Shown here in pieces: positions 1,577-45,014 of a DNA stretch of 60,346 nt. A model generated the notes under the pieces. That model saw only the letters and a program-made list of their open reading frames with translations, made no database searches and was not told where the DNA came from. Origin of the DNA: a virus (taxonomy: Duplodnaviria > Heunggongvirae > Uroviricota > Caudoviricetes). The DNA is taken from IMG/VR virus record IMGVR_UViG_3300045988_141393. The stretch is one strand, 5' to 3'. The position numbers and the translations under genes are program-made. The first letter of the stretch is position 1; each line of letters opens with the position of its first letter.

Positions 1577-3506
1577 CAATCCTTTACGAATTAATATTCA
1601 GTCTACTTTTGCTGATACGATCCCCGGCTATGTGCCAAGTCGCTGGTCTTCAGAAGAATTAAGCGAAGATGACCTGATTTTTGAGGCGGCGACCTTAGAA
1701 GATATTGAGCTTGCCTATATGGGCAATGAAATACTGGTTGTGTCTGACGAAGCTATGTTTGAGTCCATAACTACAACCAGAATTCGGTTAGCTCAAACAA
1801 TGCGAGCTTTCGTCCGTGCGCTGAATCGTGGCCTGAATGGTACGAATATTATGGCAGGGACTGATGAAGCCGGGACCGATGAAAATGGACGTAATTGTAT
1901 TGGTGGTGCGATTATCGGTCGTGTGCGTCGGGTAGCTAATATCCCTGTTTTGACCGCGCAGATACCGCTTACTGACGGGCAGAGTACAAGCATAATTTTC
2001 CACTCTCCAACAGCTGACGGGGCAAAAATAAAGAGTAACGACGAGCTTGTTGCATTTCAGTTTTTACTTAATAAGCGTAACGTAACTCACGTTGTCGCCC
2101 CGATTGGTGGGAGAGATGTTTCTTTAAGCCAGGTATGCCAGGCGCTATCTAATTTGATTGAGCGTAACAGCGAAAAATTTAAGAAAGCAAAAGAGCGCCA
2201 GGACAAAATGAAGGCAGATATTGAGAGTTATCTCAATGAAGCAGATAAACTGGCAGAAGAACGGTCAATAATGATTGATCAGGTGGACGTTGCGCAACGT
2301 GGGCTGACTGAAAAGCGTGCTGCTCTTACGGAGATGCAAAAAAAACTTGATGCCCAGAAAGCTATCAATGAGGAGTTACAAGCAAAACGCGATAAATTGT
2401 TGTCTTCTAAAGGAGAAAAAACGAAAGAACGAGCGTTTAGTGACCAGCTGCGACATGTAAAACATAATCTTGCCATTGACGGAAAAACAGTGCTGGATAA
2501 TGGCGCTGAAGTTAATTATGTCACGTCCGGCAGTGACAATTTCGTTACGATAGTAGCACCTGAAGGTAAATTCAGTATTGATGCCAGTGCTGTCAAAGGA
2601 GGCAGTTTGGCAGATGCTGCAACCAAATTACTTAAAGCCTACCGAGAGCATAACGCAGAAAAATATAAAGTTGATTTGTTACCAGGCCAGCTGGAAGACT
2701 CCGAACCACCACAGACGGACCCCGAAACAAACCCAGTATCACAACCAGAGAGCCAAGATGTAGGTAAATACCACTATGCACTTCAATCTCGCCCGGCTGG
2801 TGTTGGTGCTGTTCCGGATGGAAATAAAGCCGTGCTTGATCGTCCTGACCAGGCTGATCAGTATTACGAATATGCTCGTCACGGTATCATTACGTATGAC
2901 CGTAAACTGACAGATGAAGAAGTCAGCCAGTACGAGTTGCTTTATCTTCCTGATGAAGATGAGCTGAAAGATTTTGCAGGCCAATTGGTTGCGTCCAGCA
3001 TGTCGAAACATATTGATGGCTATGTGGACCTGTTTGGCAGTGACCTGAAAACATTCAAGGCGCAAGTGAAAATTCTTTTCCGCAAAGCGTTTCCAAACGT
3101 GGCGTATCCACTTAGTGATGGGGAGAACCTTTTCATTATGGACGTGTATAACGCCCTTCAAAATCATTCAAGCGAAGTAAAAACAGAGAATGTGGTTGAG
3201 CCAGAATCACAACCACAACCACAACCACAACCAGCACCAGAACAGGAGTCGGAGCCAGAAGAAGCGGGTGAATCAGCAAGTGAAGCTGATCAGGAAGCAG
3301 ATAAAGCGCTGGAGTACCTGAAATCCGTGCCGGAGCAGTTTACATCCCGCGATCTGACGGTCATCAGTGCTGAACTTGATCATGTGCAGGAAGCAGCAAA
3401 CGCTCTAATCAGTGCAGGTCGATACGACGAGAACGAAGCCACTGTGGGTGCAGCAGTTGACTACCTGATCAATATTCTGGCTGAAATTCAGCAGGGAGGT
3501 GTTTAA
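1563..3506 (+). CDS. DarA-like internal head/antirestriction protein (putative)
   Basis: About 647 aa from ATG 1563 preceded by GGAGG; coiled-coil centre, in-frame (QP)n linker, acidic C-terminus; size and operon position match P1 DarA; not verified by alignment. Confidence 0.35.
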   Translation: MSMINNPLRINIQSTFADTIPGYVPSRWSSEELSEDDLIFEAATLEDIELAYMGNEILVVSDEAMFESITTTRIRLAQTMRAFVRALNRGLNGTNIMAGTDEAGTDENGRNCIGGAIIGRVRRVANIPVLTAQIPLTDGQSTSIIFHSPTADGAKIKSNDELVAFQFLLNKRNVTHVVAPIGGRDVSLSQVCQALSNLIERNSEKFKKAKERQDKMKADIESYLNEADKLAEERSIMIDQVDVAQRGLTEKRAALTEMQKKLDAQKAINEELQAKRDKLLSSKGEKTKERAFSDQLRHVKHNLAIDGKTVLDNGAEVNYVTSGSDNFVTIVAPEGKFSIDASAVKGGSLADAATKLLKAYREHNAEKYKVDLLPGQLEDSEPPQTDPETNPVSQPESQDVGKYHYALQSRPAGVGAVPDGNKAVLDRPDQADQYYEYARHGIITYDRKLTDEEVSQYELLYLPDEDELKDFAGQLVASSMSKHIDGYVDLFGSDLKTFKAQVKILFRKAFPNVAYPLSDGENLFIMDVYNALQNHSSEVKTENVVEPESQPQPQPQPAPEQESEPEEAGESASEADQEADKALEYLKSVPEQFTSRDLTVISAELDHVQEAANALISAGRYDENEATVGAAVDYLINILAEIQQGGV

Positions 3507-11487: not shown

Positions 11488-14400
11488 TTGGACAAACTAC
11501 TTCATTCAATCAGTGAAGCCTCCAGCTTAGGCGAACTGATTGAAATTGTTAGTCGGTTGCATAAATTACGTGCTGTTGCGACCTTTGGCGTCAGGAAAGC
11601 CGATGGCGTCAGTATTCAGAAAACACGCCGGGCAGCAAACAATGCCGCAGTAAATCTTCTTAATTCCCTTCCGCCCGGCTTCGATGGGGCGAAATTAACT
11701 GACGAACAACGTCAGATTCTTGCCGGGTATACCGGTGAAGGCGGCCTGACAGATGGTGAGGGCAGCCAATACGAATACTACACGCCACAGTTTATGGCTG
11801 AAGGTATATGGGATCTGTTTGCTGACTACGGTATTGATGGCGGGCACGTACTGGAACCATCAGCGGGCACAGGTATTTTCCAGGAGACAAAACGGCAGGG
11901 CATGATAATGACCAGCGCCGAACTGTCTCCGATTTCCGGTCGAATAAACCAGCTTTTGCACCCGGAAGACGATGTGAATATCGGGGCGTTTGAGGCGCTG
12001 GCGGCGAAAGACGCAATGTATGATCACGCTGTAGGTAACGTACCGTTTGGTGAAGGGCGTTCCGGTGTCGCCGGGCTTGATCCGGCATATGCAAACGAGA
12101 AGAACGTTGGCAATTACTTTGTGCTGCGCACGATCGACAAGGTTAAGCCTGGTGGGCTTATCGTATTGGTGGTGCCGAATGGCATGACCGATGGTGCGAA
12201 ATATAAAAAATTGCGCGATAAAGTCAGCCGTAAAGCGGAATTTTTGGGCGCACATCGTATGCCTTCTGGTACGTTCAGCGAATCCGGTACAGATACCGTG
12301 GTGGACGTATGGGTATTGCGTAAACACCCGGAAACCTTCCTGGAGATGATCCCCGACACGGATGATTCAACACTCAAATCGGCAAACGTCCTTTGGGATA
12401 CCTTCCTCAAAGGAAAATGGTTTACAACCGAAGGGAAGCGATTTGTTTACGGCGACATGGAACGTACCAGCTTCCGCAATACCCTGGTGGTGAAAAAAGA
12501 CGGTCGTGTATCCAATGAGTCGATGAAAACCGCGCTATCTCGTCGCTTTGATAGTCGCATCAATTGGGATTTGCTCGGCGTAACTACTCAGGCATGGCAG
12601 GGCGCGAAAGTGGGCGATAAACGCCTTGTAGGCGGTATCTGGCATGAGTTTGATGGTCTGAAATGGGTTAAGGACACGACAACCAAATCCTCCGCGCTTG
12701 ATGTAAGTCGATATGGTGTTTCGACGTTTGGCGATCTGCAGATCGCGTTCCAGTCAACAAACGGGATTCTGGCTTTGTCATGGGACCAGATATCGGCGAT
12801 CGCGTCCGACTATCCATCGGTTGTCAGTGATGAAGTGGCAGCAATGATTCGCTTTGCTGGCAAGCAGCGAGAAAAAGACAGGGAGCGCGTTATGCGCGGT
12901 GCGCTGATAGGTCAGTTGATCAACAAGGCACTTGATTTGCGTAACCTGGGTGTGAACGTTGATGACAAACTGGCAGATGCATCCCGCCTGGCGGCAGCAG
13001 AAGTTGCGAAGTATGGACCACCGCACGCCATTAAGCTGAATGGGCTTGCTGAAGCTGGCGCTAAAAACTGGATGACGTTCACTGGCAATGTGAAACAGGA
13101 TGGTTCCACTTCTGACCTTCTGGCAGGGCGACTTGATGTAACGGATGGTGCTGCCGGTATTGACTTTACACGTCCTGAACAAGTGATAGCACATCTTTTC
13201 AGTGATGTAGCCCTTAATCCTATAACGCTGGGAGACTTTCGTGAGGCGTTTGCTGGTGAACTGCCAGAGGACGACGACGCGGCCCTTGAATACCTGGCGA
13301 AATTTGATGATATCGCTATTGATGGGTATGGCTGCCTGCTGCCGATGGACCGCGCCACCAGCGGCGATATTGCAACCAAAACAGCATTGCTGATGGGCTG
13401 GCGTGATGCGTCAACAGGTGAGCAGAAAGCGAACTTTGAGCGTCAGTTGGCGAAAATCGAAGAGAAACGTATTTTCACGCCACTAAATAAAGTCACCGTT
13501 AATCTGAATGCCCGCTGGCTGGATCGCCGCTTGATAAAAGAGTTCCTGGCAGAGCAGGGCTATGACGAGTTTAAGTACACTGAACCTGATCTGAAGGTCG
13601 TCGATGGCATTCTGGTATCTCCGGACGATTACGAAGGTAAGGACGGGGTATTTACCGGCTATCAGCTACGAACCGTAAACGGCAAAAACGGGAATGAGTT
13701 CAAGAAGGCCAACAATAAAGACGGCTTCCTGAACCAGTTAGAAAACTACCTGAACGGTGTTAAACCGCGTGGGCAGAACGCTAACGAGTACCTGGATAAA
13801 ATTGCTCAACTGGAAGTTAGTTTTAACGACTGGTTACGCACTCACCCGCAGGCTGATCAGATAGCCCGCGAGTATAACGACGCATTCAATGGTTTCATTC
13901 CGTTCACGCATTCTGACGCACCGCTTGGCCTGGAAGGGCTTAGTGGAAAGCGCATTCCTCTTACTTATCAGAATGAAGAAGTTCGGCGCTTGTCAGAAGA
14001 TGGGCGCGGCATCATGGGATTTGGTACCGGGCTGGGTAAAACCACGACCGCGCTTGCGCTTGAGGCGTATAACTTCGAAACAGGTCGCACTAAACGCACG
14101 TGTATTGTTGTTCCGAAGGCGGTTTATCAGAACTGGTATCACGAGGCACAGAGTTTCTACAGTGCTGATGCCTTCGCCAATATGATGTTTATCGGTTTGG
14201 ATGAAGTTCGTGATGACAGCGGAAATATTCTGACCGCGCCGGTGCTTGATGAAAATGGCGAACCACGCCTCGACAGTAACGGGCAGCCTCTTACCAGAAA
14301 TGTTGTGAAAGAGTCCGCCAGCGCCGTTATCGTTCAGCGCATGAACATGATCCCGTCGTCAAATTGGCGAACGGTCATCATGACAAAAGAACAATTCGCG

Positions 14401-22099: not shown

Positions 22100-22295
22100 T
22101 AAACCTCGTTACGGCTGGCGTGGCAAACGCGACAACCGAGACAGAGCGGTGACGGGCGGAGAGAGTGCCGCATCAAGAAAGAAGCCGACTTGTGATCCCT
22201 TTCTGCGGGCATTTGAAAGTGAATCCAGCTCAGGCAGTCGGCTTCTTTCTTGTGTGAGATGTAGCGTATTTGCCCATCTTCGGGTGGGCTTTTTT
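22100..22295 (+). ncRNA. Candidate structured small RNA ending in a Rho-independent terminator
   Basis: Perfect 17-bp inverted repeat (22174..22190 / 22236..22252) and terminator GCCCA-tcttcg-GGTGGGC-TTTTTT (22272..22295); no convincing ORF. Confidence 0.25.
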
Positions 22296-22755
22296 AGGGT
22301 TTTCGTCATGGTTAGCGACTTTGCGGCGGTTTAGAAACCGACCATTAAAGTAAATGCAAACGATGATCTGATGATGGTAGCGGCCTAAGAAGCCAGACGC
22401 CACGGGGTATGAGTCGTCCCCCGTCAAAAAATCGACCGCAGAGTGTCCCCGTCTGTGTATTAGGGAACGGGGAGGCATAACAGGCAAGGGCGCTGGTGTG
22501 ATTAACCAGATGAATGAGAAGGGTCAGGTCTTTCTGGTCAGCGCCCTTACCTGTTACGTCCCTCCCGCGTAACAGCCATTGATTAATGGCTTTCTGGGAT
22601 AACATCCTACTACGGGTATATCCCGTCATGCTGAAGGCGCTAATCACGCTGGAAGCCAGGGTTGTGCATCCCCTGTTACCGAATTGCAGCCAGGGCGCGG
22701 TGCGCCGAAAAGCATACGGAGGTGGAAGCCCTCGCCGGAGACGTACCCGGCAAGT

Positions 22756-22832
22756 GATGGTGTAGCTCAGTAGGATAGAGCAGCAGCCTTCTAAGCTGTC
22801 GGTCGGTGGTTCGAATCCACCCACCATCGCCA
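22756..22832 (+). tRNA. tRNA-Arg (anticodon UCU)
   Basis: Manual cloverleaf: acceptor GATGGTG/CACCATC, D GCTC/GAGC, anticodon loop CUUCUAA, T-loop TTCGAAT, 3' CCA encoded. Confidence 0.8.
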
Positions 22833-22837
22833 ATTTA

Positions 22838-22924
22838 GGGGAGTTAGTCCGTAGGGGTAGCGGGGTAGACTGTAAATCTACTGTCATTGCGACTCGGGTG
22901 GTTCGACTCCATCACTCCCCACCA
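22838..22924 (+). tRNA. tRNA-Tyr (anticodon GUA), long variable arm
   Basis: Acceptor GGGGAGT/ACTCCCC, anticodon stem GTAGA/TCTAC with loop CTGTAAA, T-loop TTCGACT, CCA encoded. Confidence 0.7.
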
Positions 22925-22928
22925 AATT

Positions 22929-23004
22929 GCCGGTTTAGCTCAGTTGGTAGAGCGCCTGCCTTGTAAGCAGGATGTCAGCGGTTCGAGTCCGTTAACCGGC
23001 ACCA
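22929..23004 (+). tRNA. tRNA-Thr (anticodon UGU)
   Basis: Acceptor GCCGGTT/AACCGGC, anticodon stem CCTGC/GCAGG loop CTTGTAA, T-loop TTCGAGT, CCA encoded. Confidence 0.8.
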
Positions 23005-23406
23005 ACACAACAGGTAAGGGCATTCTCCCTTATGGGGCTTGGCTTAAATGCATCGAGTGCTCTTACCGTTGTGATGAAGTGCAGCTCTTTGAAGCAACCA
23101 GAAGATAAGCATCTGGCTTCACAACATAAACCGCAGGAACGACCAATAAACGGTAGTCCGTATGGAGAACACCCCGTTGAGGAAGAGGCCTGGCCGGAAC
23201 CGTAACCGGCACCACAACGTTGAGAACACTGGCGTAACGGGGTCATATCCCAATCTATGAATAAATGTTGCGTTGCAGCGTGACAACCAGTGTTCTCAAC
23301 ATTGTGGTGAATGCACAGGCTGATGTGCCGCAACTACAGTAGTGCGCGCTTTGCGGGGCTTGCTACAACCCTGTGTCGGAGTTCAGCACCGACCATCACA
23401 ATCACT

Positions 23407-23493
23407 GGAGAGTAGGGAGCATGGTGCTCAAGCGGTCTTGAAAACCGTCCCATTGCGCAAGCGATGATGGTTCGATTCCATTACTCTCCGCCA
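23407..23493 (+). tRNA. tRNA-Ser (anticodon UGA) candidate, class II
   Basis: Acceptor GGAGAGT/ACTCTCC, anticodon stem GCGGT/ACCGT loop CTTGAAA, 17-nt variable arm, T-loop TTCGATT, CCA encoded; short D-loop makes it less certain. Confidence 0.55.
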
Positions 23494-23756
23494 GTGCAAC
23501 GTTAAGAGTATTTGGCTAATTAAGCGAATGCCGGAAGCAGAACCGGATCACCAAATGCGTACAGGCGTCATCGCCGCCCAGCCAGCCAAGTGCTCTTACC
23601 ATTGCGGTGAATGCGGCTAAGCGCACGCGGAACAGTTAAAACAATCCTCCTTAGTGGTTAAGTCAAACATCCCGGCGTTAATTGTTAACTGGTTAACGTC
23701 ACCTGGAGGCACCAGGCACCGCAGCTTTTTTATTCGGTAAATAATGGAGTGAGAGG

Positions 23757-23993
23757 ATGCAGAACAATCCGAACAAATGTCGAACGCTATGGGTGCGGTT
23801 ATATATTTATGTCGTCCTCTGTTTGATTGTGTCACTGGTTCTGTATGTTTGGCTTTTGCCAAATATGATCTCATCTGACAGCACAATACTTGTATTGTTG
23901 GGAGTCCTTCTCGCGCTCATTTACCCGGCTTTTGCAGTAGTCTTTTTTCGTGAAAAAACCAGGAAATTGATTAATGAAAAAAACGTTGATTAG
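23757..23993 (+). CDS. Small membrane protein
   Basis: 78 aa with two hydrophobic helices; overlaps start of downstream SPFH gene. Confidence 0.3.
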   Translation: MQNNPNKCRTLWVRLYIYVVLCLIVSLVLYVWLLPNMISSDSTILVLLGVLLALIYPAFAVVFFREKTRKLINEKNVD

Positions 23994-24955: not shown

Positions 24956-25031
24956 GGCCCTTTAGCTCAGTGGTTAGAGCTGGCGACTCATAATCGCACG
25001 GTCACCGGTTCAAGTCCGGTAGGGGCCACCA
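24956..25031 (+). tRNA. tRNA with CAU anticodon (Ile2 lysidine-type or elongator Met)
   Basis: Acceptor GGCCCTT/AGGGGCC, anticodon loop CTCATAA, T-loop TTCAAGT, CCA encoded; resembles enterobacterial ileX-type tRNA. Confidence 0.7.
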
Positions 25032-25485
25032 TATTTGGTTGTAACACGGCGTCTGGCACATGCGTCGTTAGCGGTCTGGTGACGTTAAAGGGGTATCTTT
25101 GACTCTTGCTCAGGCAAACGGACCAGGTAGCCGGAATGTGCAAGCCCCGATAACAGTGGCGGACCGAGGACTCACCATCCTGGCGATTCGGTGTGACAGC
25201 CGGAAGAGCACGGCGCACAACAGGAAAAGGCGTTAAATTAGCGTGAGCGCCGTTTCCGTTGTGGAAATTGCGGCTATGCGCTCGTGACGAAGCCATTTTT
25301 ATTCACTACGTTCTGATAAGTGACGTCGCCAGGAGTGGCTAACCTGGCAGGTGGAGGCACCACCGCCACAACTCCTTTCAATTCATCATATAGCCGCTCA
25401 GGCTGTACCCCTTAATTAATACGAATTTACGACATCACTACCGGCACTTCCGGGGGATAGTCGCGCGTGTAAAAAAGGAGACGTT

Positions 25486-44707: not shown

Positions 44708-45014
44708 TCACTCTCCTTTCGAAATAAACGTACTGATTAATCATTCCCAGGGGCATTTCGAGTTTTTCTGCGATCTCACGGCGGGGAACACCACACTGAT
44801 GAAGCTGCCGCGCCAGTTCTATATCGCTCTGCCGGTATTTGGCTGACTGGTGAAAGTCTCCTTTCAGAATCATGCTGATCCGCAGTTGCCGCGCTTTAGT
44901 CCTGACTGCGCCACCGGTACGTCCGATCAGTCTCCCAATAGTCTCGACTGTCATAGTCCCGGCGCACTGGCGGAGTATCATGATTTCCGCCCTTCCCCAT
45001 CCCCGCCAGCTCAC
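44697..45014 (-). CDS. Small HTH-containing protein
   Basis: 105 aa; HTH-like segment VPRREIAEKLEMPLGMINQYV. Confidence 0.35.
   Translation of the reverse strand: MSWRGWGRAEIMILRQCAGTMTVETIGRLIGRTGGAVRTKARQLRISMILKGDFHQSAKYRQSDIELARQLHQCGVPRREIAEKLEMPLGMINQYVYFERRVNEV

What the first reader, a model, noticed from the sequence alone, without database searches (positions are those of the whole stretch)
23056..23618. Repeated box and 21-bp inverted repeat between tRNA genes
A motif of about 20 nt recurs three times after tRNA genes: GTGCTCTTACCGTTGTGATGAAGTGCAG (23058..23085), GTGTTCTCAACATTGTGGTGAATGCACAG (23290..23318) and GTGCTCTTACCATTGCGGTGAATGCGGC (23591..23618). The middle copy pairs with an upstream reverse-complement, CCACAACGTTGAGAACACTGG at about 23212 against CCAGTGTTCTCAACATTGTGG at about 23287, giving a 21-bp stem. 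A 3' tRNA-Thr-like fragment (CGTAACCGGCACCA, about 23201..23214) sits at the base of this stem. These could be RNase processing signals for the polycistronic tRNA precursor, stable RNAs, or a remnant of tRNA duplication.
Basis: seen in the sequence. Interest (0 to 1): 0.45.

Follow-up and report, generated by a model that had tools for sequence, protein, structure and literature searches.

The report
Phage RNA hairpin family punctuating tRNAs
The three repeated "boxes" are the right-hand arms of long RNA hairpins from a large, unannotated family that separates tRNAs and other small RNA genes in the transcripts of many enterobacterial phages, phage lambda included, and most likely marks where the long precursor RNA is cut.

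Summary
All three boxes, not only the middle one, pair with an upstream inverted partner. These partners start at the CCA end of tRNA-Thr, of a tRNA-Thr acceptor minihelix, and of tRNA-Ser. A model built from relatives finds five such hairpins in this window's P1-type ban-operon leader.

They belong to a family with the form CACAAC-A-GGUAAGAGCA…UGCUCUUUCC-GUUGUG-GUGAAU. It occurs in at least 294 phage and prophage contexts and in 1115 of 5426 E. coli genomes, between the Q antiterminator and the holin gene or on P1-like plasmids. Lambda has one directly after tR'. No Rfam family covers it.

The evidence points to function as RNA on the transcribed strand:
- 259 G·U pairs against 8 A·C mismatches in the arms.
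- Neighbouring tRNAs are co-oriented 260 to 4.
- 10 of 19 stem pairs show compensatory changes.

The stems are conserved while the loops fall into about 50 unrelated types. Conversely, two loop types are conserved inside quite different stems.

Best reading: processing and stability hairpins, probably RNase III substrates like the T7 R-sites, which also act as recombination joints between RNA-gene modules. Cleavage itself is untested.

Noticed nearby: a widespread tmRNA-like tag-coding RNA with no tRNA-like domain.

The parts
22474..22561 (+). E0: family hairpin downstream of the tmRNA-like tag module (UAACAGGCAAGGGCGCUG ... CAGCGCCCUUACCUGUUA).
   Evidence: Sequence. Model R1 scores 23 bits on the plus strand and 31.5 on the minus. 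The P1 copy scores higher on the plus strand (31.1 against 24). The plus strand is assigned from context.
22734..22751 (+). 5-bp minihelix GCCGG-AGACGUAC-CCGGC just before tRNA-Arg. One of three GCCGGA..CCGG hairpins in the locus.
   Evidence: family D4 (22734, 23193, 23530).
22756..23004 (+). tRNA-Arg(UCU), tRNA-Tyr(GUA) and tRNA-Thr(UGU). The CCA end of tRNA-Thr lies one base before E1.
   Evidence: ARAGORN; Rfam tRNA hits.
23006..23084 (+). E1: canonical family hairpin. 5' arm 23006-23022, L1 loop 23023-23057, 3' arm 23058-23073, tail AUGAAGUGCAG.
   Evidence: Fold -34.9 kcal/mol, z = -4.2. R1 69.4 bits, E = 4e-17. The loop core GGGGCTTGGCTTAAATGC is found inside at least 7 different stems in other phages.
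23091..23120 (+). Spacer hairpin GAAGC-AA-CCAGA...UCUGG-CUUC, followed by a second CACAAC. It is conserved in Sashavirus and in Klebsiella phages.
23193..23214 (+). Acceptor-stem minihelix GCCGG-AACCGUAA-CCGGC plus ACCA. It is invariant in P1, P7, D6 and this window.
   Evidence: The same kind of minihelix precedes family hairpins elsewhere, with covarying stems.
23210..23309 (+). E2: hairpin with a divergent arm sequence (CACCACAACGUUGAGAACACUGG / CCAGUGUUCUCAACAUUGUGGUG). It contains box 2.
   Evidence: Arms 23 nt, 96% complementary. Fold -50.1 kcal/mol, z = -5.3. R1 36.9 bits.
23313..23328 (+). Tail hairpin GCACA-GGCUGA-UGUGC after GUGAAU. It is the usual 3' neighbour of family hairpins. 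Its stem covaries: GCGCA/UGCGC, UCGCA/UGCGA, UGCA/UGCA.
23407..23493 (+). tRNA-Ser(UGA), whose 3' end is drawn into the base of E3.
23493..23617 (+). E3: hairpin enclosing the L3 module (23519-23583). It contains box 3.
   Evidence: Fold -44.7 kcal/mol. R1 31.0 bits. The loop is 98.5% identical to lambda 44866-44930 and about 88% identical to rV5-like phages. In those phages the enclosing stem has a completely different sequence but still pairs.
23603..23723 (+). Leader that starts inside box 3. It resembles the prophage sRNA STnc100 and the dicF-dicB spacer of E. coli K-12 Qin. In the STnc100 model, UGCGGUG of box 3 pairs with CACCGCA at 23717-23723, an alternative partner.
   Evidence: RF02076 scores 39.4 bits, below the gathering score of 47. 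K-12 match.
25199..25263 (+). Minihelix GCCG-GAAGAGCA-CGGC followed by E4, a short-loop family hairpin (CACAAC-A-GGAAAAGGCG ... CGCCGUUUCC-GUUGUG). It lies downstream of tRNA-Met/Ile2(CAU).
   Evidence: R1 35.7 bits, E = 1e-7. Sequence.

Best explanation
**What it is.** The boxes are the 3' arms of transcribed long hairpins. They punctuate the non-coding part of the P1-type ban operon, which runs: promoter, dicF-like sRNA, tmRNA-like tag RNA, E0, tRNA-Arg/Tyr/Thr, E1, minihelix, E2, tRNA-Ser, E3, STnc100-like leader, ORFs, tRNA-Ile2-like, E4, then further ORFs and ban.

Each hairpin starts directly after another helix: a tRNA CCA end, a 5-bp minihelix, or in lambdoid phages the tR' terminator.

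Each hairpin has these parts:
- a covarying 6-bp outer stem;
- a bulged A;
- a 10-13 bp inner stem of conserved sequence with a U·U mismatch;
- a loop of 14 to about 200 nt (14 nt in E4);
- a single-stranded GUGAAU tail, often followed by a small hairpin.

**Shown here.** The family exists. Selection acts on the RNA-sense strand. Pairing is maintained by compensatory changes.

**Inferred mechanism.** The roughly 20-bp duplex is a substrate for host RNase III. The GUGAAU tail is possibly an RNase E site. Cleavage would separate the modules of the polycistronic precursor. It would turn a blocked 3' trailer into one that exonucleases can trim back to CCA. It would also leave the neighbouring RNAs, and the enclosed loop RNA, with structured and stable ends.

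**DNA level.** The conserved arms act as short homologies at which RNA-gene modules and loops are exchanged between phages.
For: **RNA-level selection on the plus strand.**
- The arms hold 259 G·U pairs against 8 A·C single mismatches.
- One-sided changes go almost only to G·U.
- In alignment A3, 93.9% of cells are paired and 10 of 19 pairs show double changes, against 3.2 in shuffles (0 of 500 reach the observed value). Slid controls give 35-69% paired.
- The L1 loop sits in at least 7 different complementary stems.
- The L3 loop sits in three different stems: 23 bp in P1-like phages, 12 bp in rV5-like phages, 9 bp in lambda.

**Transcribed context.**
- tRNAs within 1.5 kb lie 260 on the same strand and 4 on the opposite strand.
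- In E. coli prophages the element lies between the Q antiterminator and the holin gene on the late strand.
- In Klebsiella phage MK54 the unit has its own sigma-70-like promoter on the element's strand.

**Position.** The hairpin always follows a helix: terminator, tRNA CCA end or minihelix.

**Module boundaries.**
- P1 and D6 carry a different E1 loop from P7 and this window, with compensatory arm changes.
- tRNA-Ser with its E3 loop is present in P7, D6 and this window. P1 has other sequence there and an E2-type loop in its third hairpin.
- One lambda-like prophage carries an extra block, E(L1) plus the tag module, between tR' and the next hairpin.

**Precedent.**
- The T7 RNase III sites are likewise a repeated family with a conserved stem sequence, CAAGGUC...GGCCUUUAU|GAU (site coordinates recalled from memory).
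- The title of Daniels et al. 1988 reports RNase III processing sites on the lambda late transcript in vivo. It is cited in PMC7547250.
Against: - No cleavage data were available, so the nuclease is inferred from anatomy only.
- The positions of the lambda RNase III sites could not be checked because the paper is not held. The published E. coli base-pair preference matrix could not be applied because the supplement is not held.
- In a global fold of the lambda late leader the long hairpin is not in the minimum-energy structure. Its 3' arm pairs instead with a downstream CAGCACAAC, and that pairing itself covaries.
- Strong sequence conservation of the inner stem, the fixed U·U mismatch and the bulged A go beyond what a plain dsRNA substrate needs. 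They could mean a different, sequence-specific partner.
- Conservation of the L1 and L3 loops across unrelated phages shows that at least some hairpins carry a function in the loop and are not only cut sites.
- G·T wobble asymmetry would also be expected for a hairpin folded from single-stranded DNA of this strand.
Confidence: 0.5

Rival explanations
1. The hairpins are themselves small-RNA genes. The conserved stem is a scaffold for processing, stability or protein binding. The loop is the effector, for example a regulatory, decoy or tRNA-like RNA. Any cutting serves mainly to release the loop RNA. This overlaps with the best explanation and differs in what is selected.
For: - The L1 core is exact in at least 120 viral stretches and sits inside at least 7 different stems.
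- L3 is 98.5% identical between this window and lambda, and about 88% identical in rV5-like phages with unrelated stems.
- Several loops carry T-loop-like hairpins of the GGUUCGAAUCC type next to an arm. P1's own E1 is one of them.
- About 50 unrelated loop types sit in one scaffold.
Against: - E4 has only a 14-nt loop.
- Many loop types were seen once only.
- No target or partner for any loop is known.
- No Rfam family matches, including Y RNA-like YrlA.
Confidence: 0.3
2. They are recombination sites used as folded single-stranded DNA, comparable to integron attC sites. Each 'cassette' would be an RNA gene followed by its hairpin, moved by a site-specific recombinase.
For: - The architecture resembles attC: a conserved AAC...GUU base, an extrahelical base, an internal mismatch, and a central region of highly variable length and sequence.
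- The units form same-orientation arrays of gene plus hairpin.
- Modules differ between relatives exactly at the hairpins.
- Strand-asymmetric G·T pairs are also expected for ssDNA hairpins.
Against: - The arms do not fit the attC R-box consensus RYYYAAC/GTTRRRY: they read GCACAAC and GTTGTGG.
- No recombinase gene is annotated next to the element in the three Q-to-holin contexts inspected.
- The host phages share no common recombinase.
- Homologous recombination at 20-bp arms explains the mosaics without one.
Confidence: 0.07
3. They are selfish repeated DNA of the MITE, REP/REPIN or ERIC type that happens to lodge in phage non-coding regions.
For: They are imperfect palindromes with conserved ends and variable interiors. 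They occupy non-coding gaps in otherwise unrelated phages, for example between head and tail genes in Sashavirus.
Against: - Median one copy per E. coli genome that has any, and only in prophages or P1-like plasmids.
- Orientation follows transcription: 260 to 4 relative to tRNAs.
- Stems covary while the loop stays constant, which a transposase-recognised end would not allow.
- No inverted loops and no copies elsewhere in the fetched loci.
Confidence: 0.05
4. They are decaying remnants of duplicated tRNA genes, or part of the protein genes plp and upl annotated on the opposite strand in P1.
For: - The minihelix at 23193-23214 equals the two acceptor strands of tRNA-Thr.
- The P1 record annotates plp and upl over this region.
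Against: - ARAGORN and Rfam find no tRNA in the hairpins.
- The minihelix and hairpins are invariant or covarying rather than decaying.
- P1 and D6 differ from P7 and this window by a 19-nt length difference and unrelated sequence inside the plp frame. The P7 record does not annotate plp or upl.
Confidence: 0.03

Closest known systems
RNase III processing sites of phage T7 (R0.3, R0.5, R1, R1.1, R1.3, R4.7, R18.5 and others)
   Same: Both are repeated, mutually homologous hairpins with conserved stem sequence. Both lie in the non-coding spacers of one long phage transcript, on the sense strand (one search shows CAAGGUC...GGCCUUUAU|GAU at the recalled sites).
   Different: There is no sequence homology. 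The T7 sites have short loops and an internal loop. The present family has a bulged A and a U·U mismatch, inserts of 14-200 nt, and spans many phage families. Cleavage is proven for T7 and untested here.
RNase III processing sites of the phage lambda late transcript (Daniels, Subbarao, Blattner, Lozeron 1988, Virology 167:568)
   Same: Lambda carries a family member at 44786-44862, directly after tR' in the Q-dependent late leader. It may be the very element reported.
   Different: Only the title is available (cited in PMC7547250). The mapped positions could not be compared. That a family exists beyond lambda is not implied by that work.
STnc100 / PasD prophage sRNAs (Rfam RF02076) and the dicF-dicB spacer of E. 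coli Qin
   Same: The sequence from inside box 3 to 23723 aligns to STnc100 model positions 31-147. It also matches the K-12 dicF-dicB spacer. All are prophage leader RNAs.
   Different: The score is below the gathering threshold (39.4 against 47). The match covers only the tail of box 3 and the downstream leader, not the hairpins.
Stable RNAs C and D of the phage T4 tRNA gene cluster, and herpesvirus MHV68 tRNA-pre-miRNA units (from memory)
   Same: In both, non-tRNA structured RNAs are co-transcribed with viral tRNAs and are released by the tRNA-processing machinery. In MHV68 a hairpin abuts the tRNA 3' end.
   Different: This is a resemblance of principle only. No sequence or structural comparison was made here.
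Integron attC sites
   Same: Both are imperfect hairpins with a conserved base, an extrahelical base and a central part of very variable length and sequence. Both follow each gene of a same-orientation array.
   Different: The R-box consensus is not met. There is no integron integrase. The cargo is RNA genes. The evidence favours an RNA-level role.

Membership tests
Phage RNase III processing hairpins (T7 R-sites, lambda sites) | Imperfect double-stranded RNA stem of about two helical turns. | tested here: met
   19-23 paired positions. Folds. 93.9% of cells paired across 39 relatives.
Phage RNase III processing hairpins (T7 R-sites, lambda sites) | Lies in a transcribed non-coding spacer or leader, on the sense strand, in several homologous copies per transcript. 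| tested here: met
   Five copies in the ban-operon leader. tRNA co-orientation 260 to 4. Q-to-holin contexts.
Phage RNase III processing hairpins (T7 R-sites, lambda sites) | RNase III-dependent cleavage that leaves 2-nt 3' overhangs. | not testable with these tools
   No transcript-end data. The Daniels 1988 paper is not held.
Phage RNase III processing hairpins (T7 R-sites, lambda sites) | Fit to the in vivo base-pair preference matrix of E. coli RNase III (Altuvia et al. 2018, Table S4). | not tested
   The supplement is not held.
Rfam STnc100 (RF02076) | Score at or above the gathering threshold over the element. | tested here: not met
   39.4 bits against 47. The match covers 23603-23723 only, model positions 31-147 of 206.
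Integron attC site | R''/R' boxes fitting RYYYAAC / GTTRRRY. | tested here: not met
   The consensus is GCACAAC / GTTGTGG. This has an A at a Y position and a T at an R position.
Integron attC site | An associated integron-type tyrosine recombinase. | tested here: not met
   None is annotated within 3.5 kb in three prophage contexts or in the P1, P7 and D6 loci. This was not searched exhaustively.
REP / REPIN / ERIC / MITE repeats | Many dispersed copies in host intergenic regions, in both orientations. | tested here: not met
   Median 1 and maximum 4 places per genome, all in prophages or P1-like plasmids. Orientation is tied to transcription.
tRNA gene or pseudogene | Cloverleaf detectable by ARAGORN or by the Rfam tRNA model. 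| tested here: not met
   No call on any hairpin. Only the 22-nt minihelix reproduces the tRNA-Thr acceptor strands.
Bacterial Y RNA (YrlA, RF02553) | Match to the family model: long terminal stem plus tRNA-like domain. | tested here: not met
   No hit on the hairpins at E up to 1-10. The only weak YrlA hits fall on true tRNAs.
tmRNA (for the neighbouring tag module, 22299-22475) | Resume context plus an in-frame degradation-tag ORF ending in hydrophobic residues and Ala-Ala or Val-Ala. | tested here: met
   ANDDLMMVAA* at 22356-22388. There are 11 variants, all of 10 codons. Rfam tmRNA_permuted coding piece scores 22.7 bits. ARAGORN recognises the resume consensus.
tmRNA (for the neighbouring tag module, 22299-22475) | tRNA-like domain with a G3·U70 acceptor stem, a T-arm and a CCA end. 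| tested here: not met
   ARAGORN finds no tmRNA in the window or in most loci. The one permuted call is assembled from halves of neighbouring tRNAs.

The most novel reading that the evidence does not exclude
The hairpin is a conserved scaffold recognised by a host factor, and it presents interchangeable 30-200 nt inserts. Phages would then carry arrays of 'RNA cassettes': tRNAs, tRNA-like loops with T-loops, the L1 and L3 RNAs, and a tmRNA-like tag RNA that lacks a tRNA-like domain. These cassettes would be processed from one precursor and swapped between unrelated phages at the hairpin arms in an integron-like way. The cassette contents would be aimed at the host translation or defence machinery.
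Probability: 0.15. Interest if true: 0.85.

Novelty: new variant of a known kind. Interest (0 to 1): 0.6.

Why it matters
If the reading holds, four things follow.

1. A sequence present in phage lambda, in P1 and in about a fifth of complete E. coli genomes gets an identity. It is currently unannotated, or in P1 mis-annotated as the protein genes plp and upl.

2. The reading gives a concrete, testable model for how phage tRNA arrays and late-operon leaders are matured.

3. The hairpin arms explain a class of mosaic joints between phage modules.

4. The scaffold with about 50 unrelated inserts is a natural catalogue of candidate phage small RNAs.

The family also led to a tmRNA-like tag-coding RNA in about 290 phage genomes. 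If that RNA is functional, it raises the question of how a tag template without a tRNA-like domain could be used.

Tried and rejected
- **Rfam at permissive thresholds.** I searched the window, P1, lambda, Felix O1, MK54, Sasha and 17 viral loci. No family covers the hairpins; only chance microRNA-type hits to long stems appeared.
- **Y RNA (YrlA) idea.** No model match.
- **Hairpins as part of a tmRNA (P2 helix or acceptor piece).** No T-arm or G3·U70 lies in the right place. The GGGG/CCCU mini-stem in L1 has its G·U at position 4:69.
- **Spacer or guide idea for the loops.** Loops have no matches elsewhere in the 2.5 Mb of fetched loci, and none is inverted. This was not tested against whole databases.
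- **Cross-check with published E. coli K-12 RNase III maps.** The DLP12 and Qin Q-to-lysis regions hold no family hairpin, only the box-3 tail downstream of dicF.
- **Scoring with the Altuvia et al. matrix.** The supplement is not held.
- **Reading Daniels 1988 and the P1 genome paper.** Neither is held.
- **Genome-wide taxonomic scan.** The pattern is too short for 596 Gb. Only 36 of 120 returned loci had a matching 5' arm; the other 84 are presumably chance matches. About half of those 36 are literal lambda DNA in unrelated assemblies, presumably contamination. The remainder are mostly Enterobacterales.
- **Crude ORF-orientation test.** Only about 70% lie on the same strand. I judged it unreliable because of spurious ORFs.
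- **MAFFT alignment of L1 hairpins (A2).** It put Felix O1-type stems out of register, so it was not used for pair counts.
Full report
**Context.** The window is a P1-type phage-plasmid, closest to P7 and D6 in this stretch. The finding lies in the leader of the ban operon. In P1 that operon is annotated as follows: C1-controlled promoter, dicF-like region, trnA, trnT, tciABC, trnI, ban. Two doubtful ORFs, plp and upl, are annotated on the opposite strand over the region in question. In this window ARAGORN finds five tRNAs, all on the plus strand:
- tRNA-Arg 22756-22832
- tRNA-Tyr 22838-22924
- tRNA-Thr 22929-23004
- tRNA-Ser 23407-23493
- tRNA-Met(CAU) 24956-25031

**The observation.** The three boxes exist at 23057-23084, 23289-23317 and 23590-23617. 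The 23-nt inverted repeat around the middle box is 96% complementary. CGTAACCGGCACCA lies at 23201-23214.

CACAACAGGUAAGGGCA (23006-23022) pairs with UGCUCUUACCGUUGUG (23058-23073). GUGCAACGUUAAGAGUAUUUGGCU (about 23495-23518) pairs with AGCCAAGUGCUCUUACCAUUGCGG (about 23584-23607).

As plus-strand RNA the three hairpins fold at -34.9, -50.1 and -44.7 kcal/mol. The z-scores against shuffles are -4.2, -5.3 and -2.5. In every case this is better than the minus strand. Each hairpin begins 0-2 nt after a CCA end. For E1 and E3 that end belongs to a tRNA. For E2 it belongs to GCCGG-AACCGUAA-CCGGC-ACCA, which is the two acceptor strands of tRNA-Thr closed by a loop.

**Relatives in P1-type phages.** P1, P7 and D6 all carry the three hairpins. 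Three differences between them are informative.
- The E1 loop in P1 and D6 is unrelated to, and 19 nt longer than, the loop in P7 and this window. It contains a T-arm-like GGGUUCGAAUCCC. The arms carry matching changes: GGGCA...UGCUC in one pair against GGGUA...UACCC in the other.
- tRNA-Ser and the E3 loop are present in P7, D6 and this window. P1 has other sequence there, and its third hairpin carries an E2-type loop.
- The 19-nt difference falls inside the annotated plp frame. This argues against plp being a gene.

**The family outside P1.**
- The E3 loop is 98.5% identical to phage lambda 44866-44930. It is about 88% identical to rV5-like phages.
- In the rV5-like phage phita32 the loop follows tRNA-Ser. 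There it is closed by a stem of unrelated sequence that still pairs: CAUUGUUGACCUUGU with ACAUGGUCAACAUAUUG.
- Lambda has a canonical hairpin, CACAACAGGUAAGAGCA...UGCUCUUUCCGUUGUG, six bases after the U-run of tR'. It is followed by the L3 sequence.
- The E1 loop recurs in a Klebsiella siphophage, in Felix O1 and in lambdoid prophages.

**Extent.** In the fetched loci I found 157 distinct hairpins in 294 distinct contexts. Their loops are 29-208 nt long and fall into 57 clusters with no mutual similarity. A few of those clusters are reverse-strand or spurious detections, so about 50 is the safer figure.

A 41-nt probe made of the 3' arm plus the tail hairpin matches 1115 of 5426 complete E. 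coli genomes. The median is one place per genome that has any. There are 969 places on chromosomes and 376 on plasmids of P1 size, and none is annotated. Three chromosomal examples lie between the Q antiterminator gene and the holin gene, on the late strand, next to three different Q types.

In the genome collection, real members come mostly from Enterobacterales: Serratia, Klebsiella, Pantoea, Erwinia, Citrobacter, Kluyvera, Rouxiella and Escherichia. Two further loci with a 5' arm came from a Martelella assembly and a Geobacteraceae MAG, possibly contamination. Many identical copies in unrelated assemblies are literal lambda DNA. No Rfam family covers the hairpins.

**Anatomy.** The consensus is CACAAC-A-GGUAAGAGCA-YUG [loop] CAG-UGCUCUU(U/A)CC-GUUGUG-GUGAAU.
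- *Outer stem.* The six outer pairs covary. Examples are CUAUC/GAUAG and AACUGG/CCAGUU.
- *Inner stem.* The ten inner pairs are nearly invariant in sequence.
- *Irregularities.* One position is U·U in most members, and the A after CACAAC is bulged.
- *5' neighbour.* It is always a helix: an intrinsic terminator, a tRNA CCA end, or a 5-bp minihelix followed by one purine. The minihelix stems covary: GCCGG/CCGGC, GCUCC/GGAGC, GCCUG/CAGGC, CCUCG/CGAGG.
- *3' neighbour.* It is most often GUGAAU followed by a small hairpin with loop GGCUGA and a covarying stem. The alternatives are the L3 module, the STnc100-like leader or the tag module.

**Strand and level of selection.**
- In 157 hairpins the arms hold 259 G·U pairs and only 8 A·C single mismatches.
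- One-sided substitutions are almost all to G·U.
- On 39 relatives with different loops, 93.9% of cells pair and 10 of 19 pairs carry changes on both sides. Shuffles give 3.2 ± 1.1, with 0 of 500 reaching the observed value. Slid registers give 35-69% paired.
- tRNA genes within 1.5 kb lie 260 on the same strand and 4 on the opposite strand.
- In MK54 the unit runs against the flanking structural genes. It has its own TTGACA-17-TAGATT promoter on its own strand.

Together these results show selection on a hairpin formed by the sense strand. RNA is the simplest reading. Single-stranded DNA of the same strand cannot be excluded by the wobble argument alone.

**Membership of the window's copies.** A covariance model built only from relatives (R1) scores as follows:
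- E1: 69.4 bits
- E2: 36.9 bits
- a previously unnoticed E4 (25214-25271): 35.7 bits
- E3: 31.0 bits
- E0 (about 22474-22561): 23 bits on the plus strand and 31.5 on the minus

The P1 copy of E0 scores higher on the plus strand. The window's copy differs by a change at the position that is usually mismatched anyway.

**Mechanism.** A duplex of about 20 bp, in several homologous copies between the functional RNAs of one transcript, is the arrangement of the T7 RNase III sites. Those sites also share a conserved stem sequence (site coordinates recalled from Dunn and Studier). RNase III processing sites are reported for the lambda late transcript (title of Daniels et al. 1988, cited in PMC7547250). 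The lambda family member sits at the start of that leader.

A hairpin abutting CCA would block exonucleolytic 3' trimming of the tRNA. A cut in the stem would remove that block. I therefore propose RNase III cleavage in the stem, perhaps with RNase E acting at the single-stranded GUGAAU. All of this is inference.

Four points weigh against a plain processing site:
- the strong sequence conservation of the inner stem;
- the fixed mismatch and bulge;
- the conservation of the L1 and L3 loops across unrelated phages;
- an alternative pairing in lambda of GUUGUGCUG with a downstream CAGCACAAC. This pairing covaries (GGUG with CACC) and wins in a global fold.

**Role at the DNA level.** Differences between relatives start and end at the hairpins. 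The evidence is the loop swaps and the tRNA-Ser difference in P1-type phages, and an extra E(L1)-plus-tag-module block in a lambda-like prophage relative to lambda. The arms therefore behave as joints for exchange of RNA modules. Homologous recombination suffices to explain this. An attC-like mechanism is a low-probability alternative: the R-box consensus is not met and no recombinase is nearby.

**Side observation.** Upstream, at 22299-22475, lies a module with the resume context and tag ORF of a tmRNA: UAAAU|GCA AAC GAU GAU CUG AUG AUG GUA GCG GCC UAA, giving ANDDLMMVAA*, at 22356-22388.
- It matches the coding piece of Rfam tmRNA_permuted weakly (22.7 bits).
- It occurs 99 times in the fetched loci in 11 variants, always of ten codons.
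- It shows a covarying post-tag hairpin and a pseudoknot-like element.
- It is found in 292 phage records from P1-like, Ackermannviridae, N4-like, lambdoid and siphophage groups. It is annotated as an RNA in none of the records listed; a few carry hypothetical-protein ORFs over it.
- No tRNA-like domain accompanies it.
- The tmRNA Website survey of 2014 lists phage ssrA only in mycobacteriophages and Bacillus phage G.

**Verdict.** The finding is real and is a member of a large, undescribed family of sense-strand RNA hairpins in phages of Enterobacterales. Its most likely role is processing and stabilisation of polycistronic RNA, with a second role as a module joint. The nuclease and the function of the inserts remain to be shown.

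Noticed in passing
window 22299-22475 (tag ORF 22356-22388); P1 NC_005856 about 68944-68976: A tmRNA-like tag-coding module (ANDDLMMVAA*) with resume context, a covarying hairpin and a pseudoknot-like element, but no tRNA-like domain. There are 11 tag variants, all of 10 codons. It is present in 292 phage records of several families and in none of the listed records is it annotated as an RNA (a few have hypothetical-protein ORFs over it).
   Followed up: partly
window 23603-23757; E. coli K-12 Qin (L295 about 12440-12610): The sequence from inside box 3 to the first ORF resembles the prophage sRNA STnc100 (below threshold). It is homologous to the dicF-dicB spacer of K-12. UGCGGUG of box 3 has an alternative downstream partner, CACCGCA, at 23717-23723.
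   Followed up: partly
L005 (lambda) 44857-44941; loci L234 and L091: In lambdoid leaders the end of the 3' arm (GUUGUGCUG) can pair with a downstream CAGCACAAC and so enclose the L3 module. This pairing covaries (GUUGUGGUG with CACCACAC) and may act as a switch between two folds.
   Followed up: partly
L001 (P1) 2681-3250: The annotated P1 genes plp and upl lie on the opposite strand over the hairpins. Relatives differ there by a 19-nt indel and unrelated loop sequence, so these ORFs are probably not genes.
   Followed up: partly
many loci, e.g. L001 2710-2806, L012, L013, L060, L074, L108: At least eight unrelated loop types contain a T-loop-like hairpin (5-bp stem with a UUCGAnU loop) next to one arm. 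This gives a tRNA-like shape with a very long 'acceptor' stem.
   Followed up: partly
L007 (Felix O1) 1254-1338: An unannotated tRNA-like gene lies 5 nt after the hairpin. Its acceptor stem is CGGGGCG/CGCCUCG, with G3·U70, A73 and CCA, which are alanine identity elements. Yet it has a UCU anticodon loop and a long extra arm. Rfam tRNA scores 31.7 bits and ARAGORN is silent.
   Followed up: no
L417 (Klebsiella phage KP8) about 1668-1797: A tRNA-like RNA of about 125 nt (UACUGGU ... GGUUCGAAUCC ... ACCAGUA-ACCA) lies directly after the tag module in an N4-like phage. An E-like hairpin follows it 2 nt after the CCA.
   Followed up: no
L004 (phage phita32) 1963-2061: An unannotated odd tRNA-like gene in the rV5-like tRNA cluster. 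ARAGORN gives it a 4-nt anticodon, and Rfam tRNA scores 35.5 bits.
   Followed up: no
window 22200-22296: A dicF-like region, annotated as such in P1, ends in the only clear intrinsic terminator of the leader (22272-22296). Transcription must read through it to reach the tag module and the tRNAs.
   Followed up: no
genome loci L301, L302, L316, L321, L338, L340, L347, L369 and others: Stretches identical to the lambda late leader occur in assemblies of Pseudomonas, Psychrobacter, Oceanobacillus, Segatella, Shewanella and other genera. This is most likely lambda control-DNA contamination of public assemblies.
   Followed up: no
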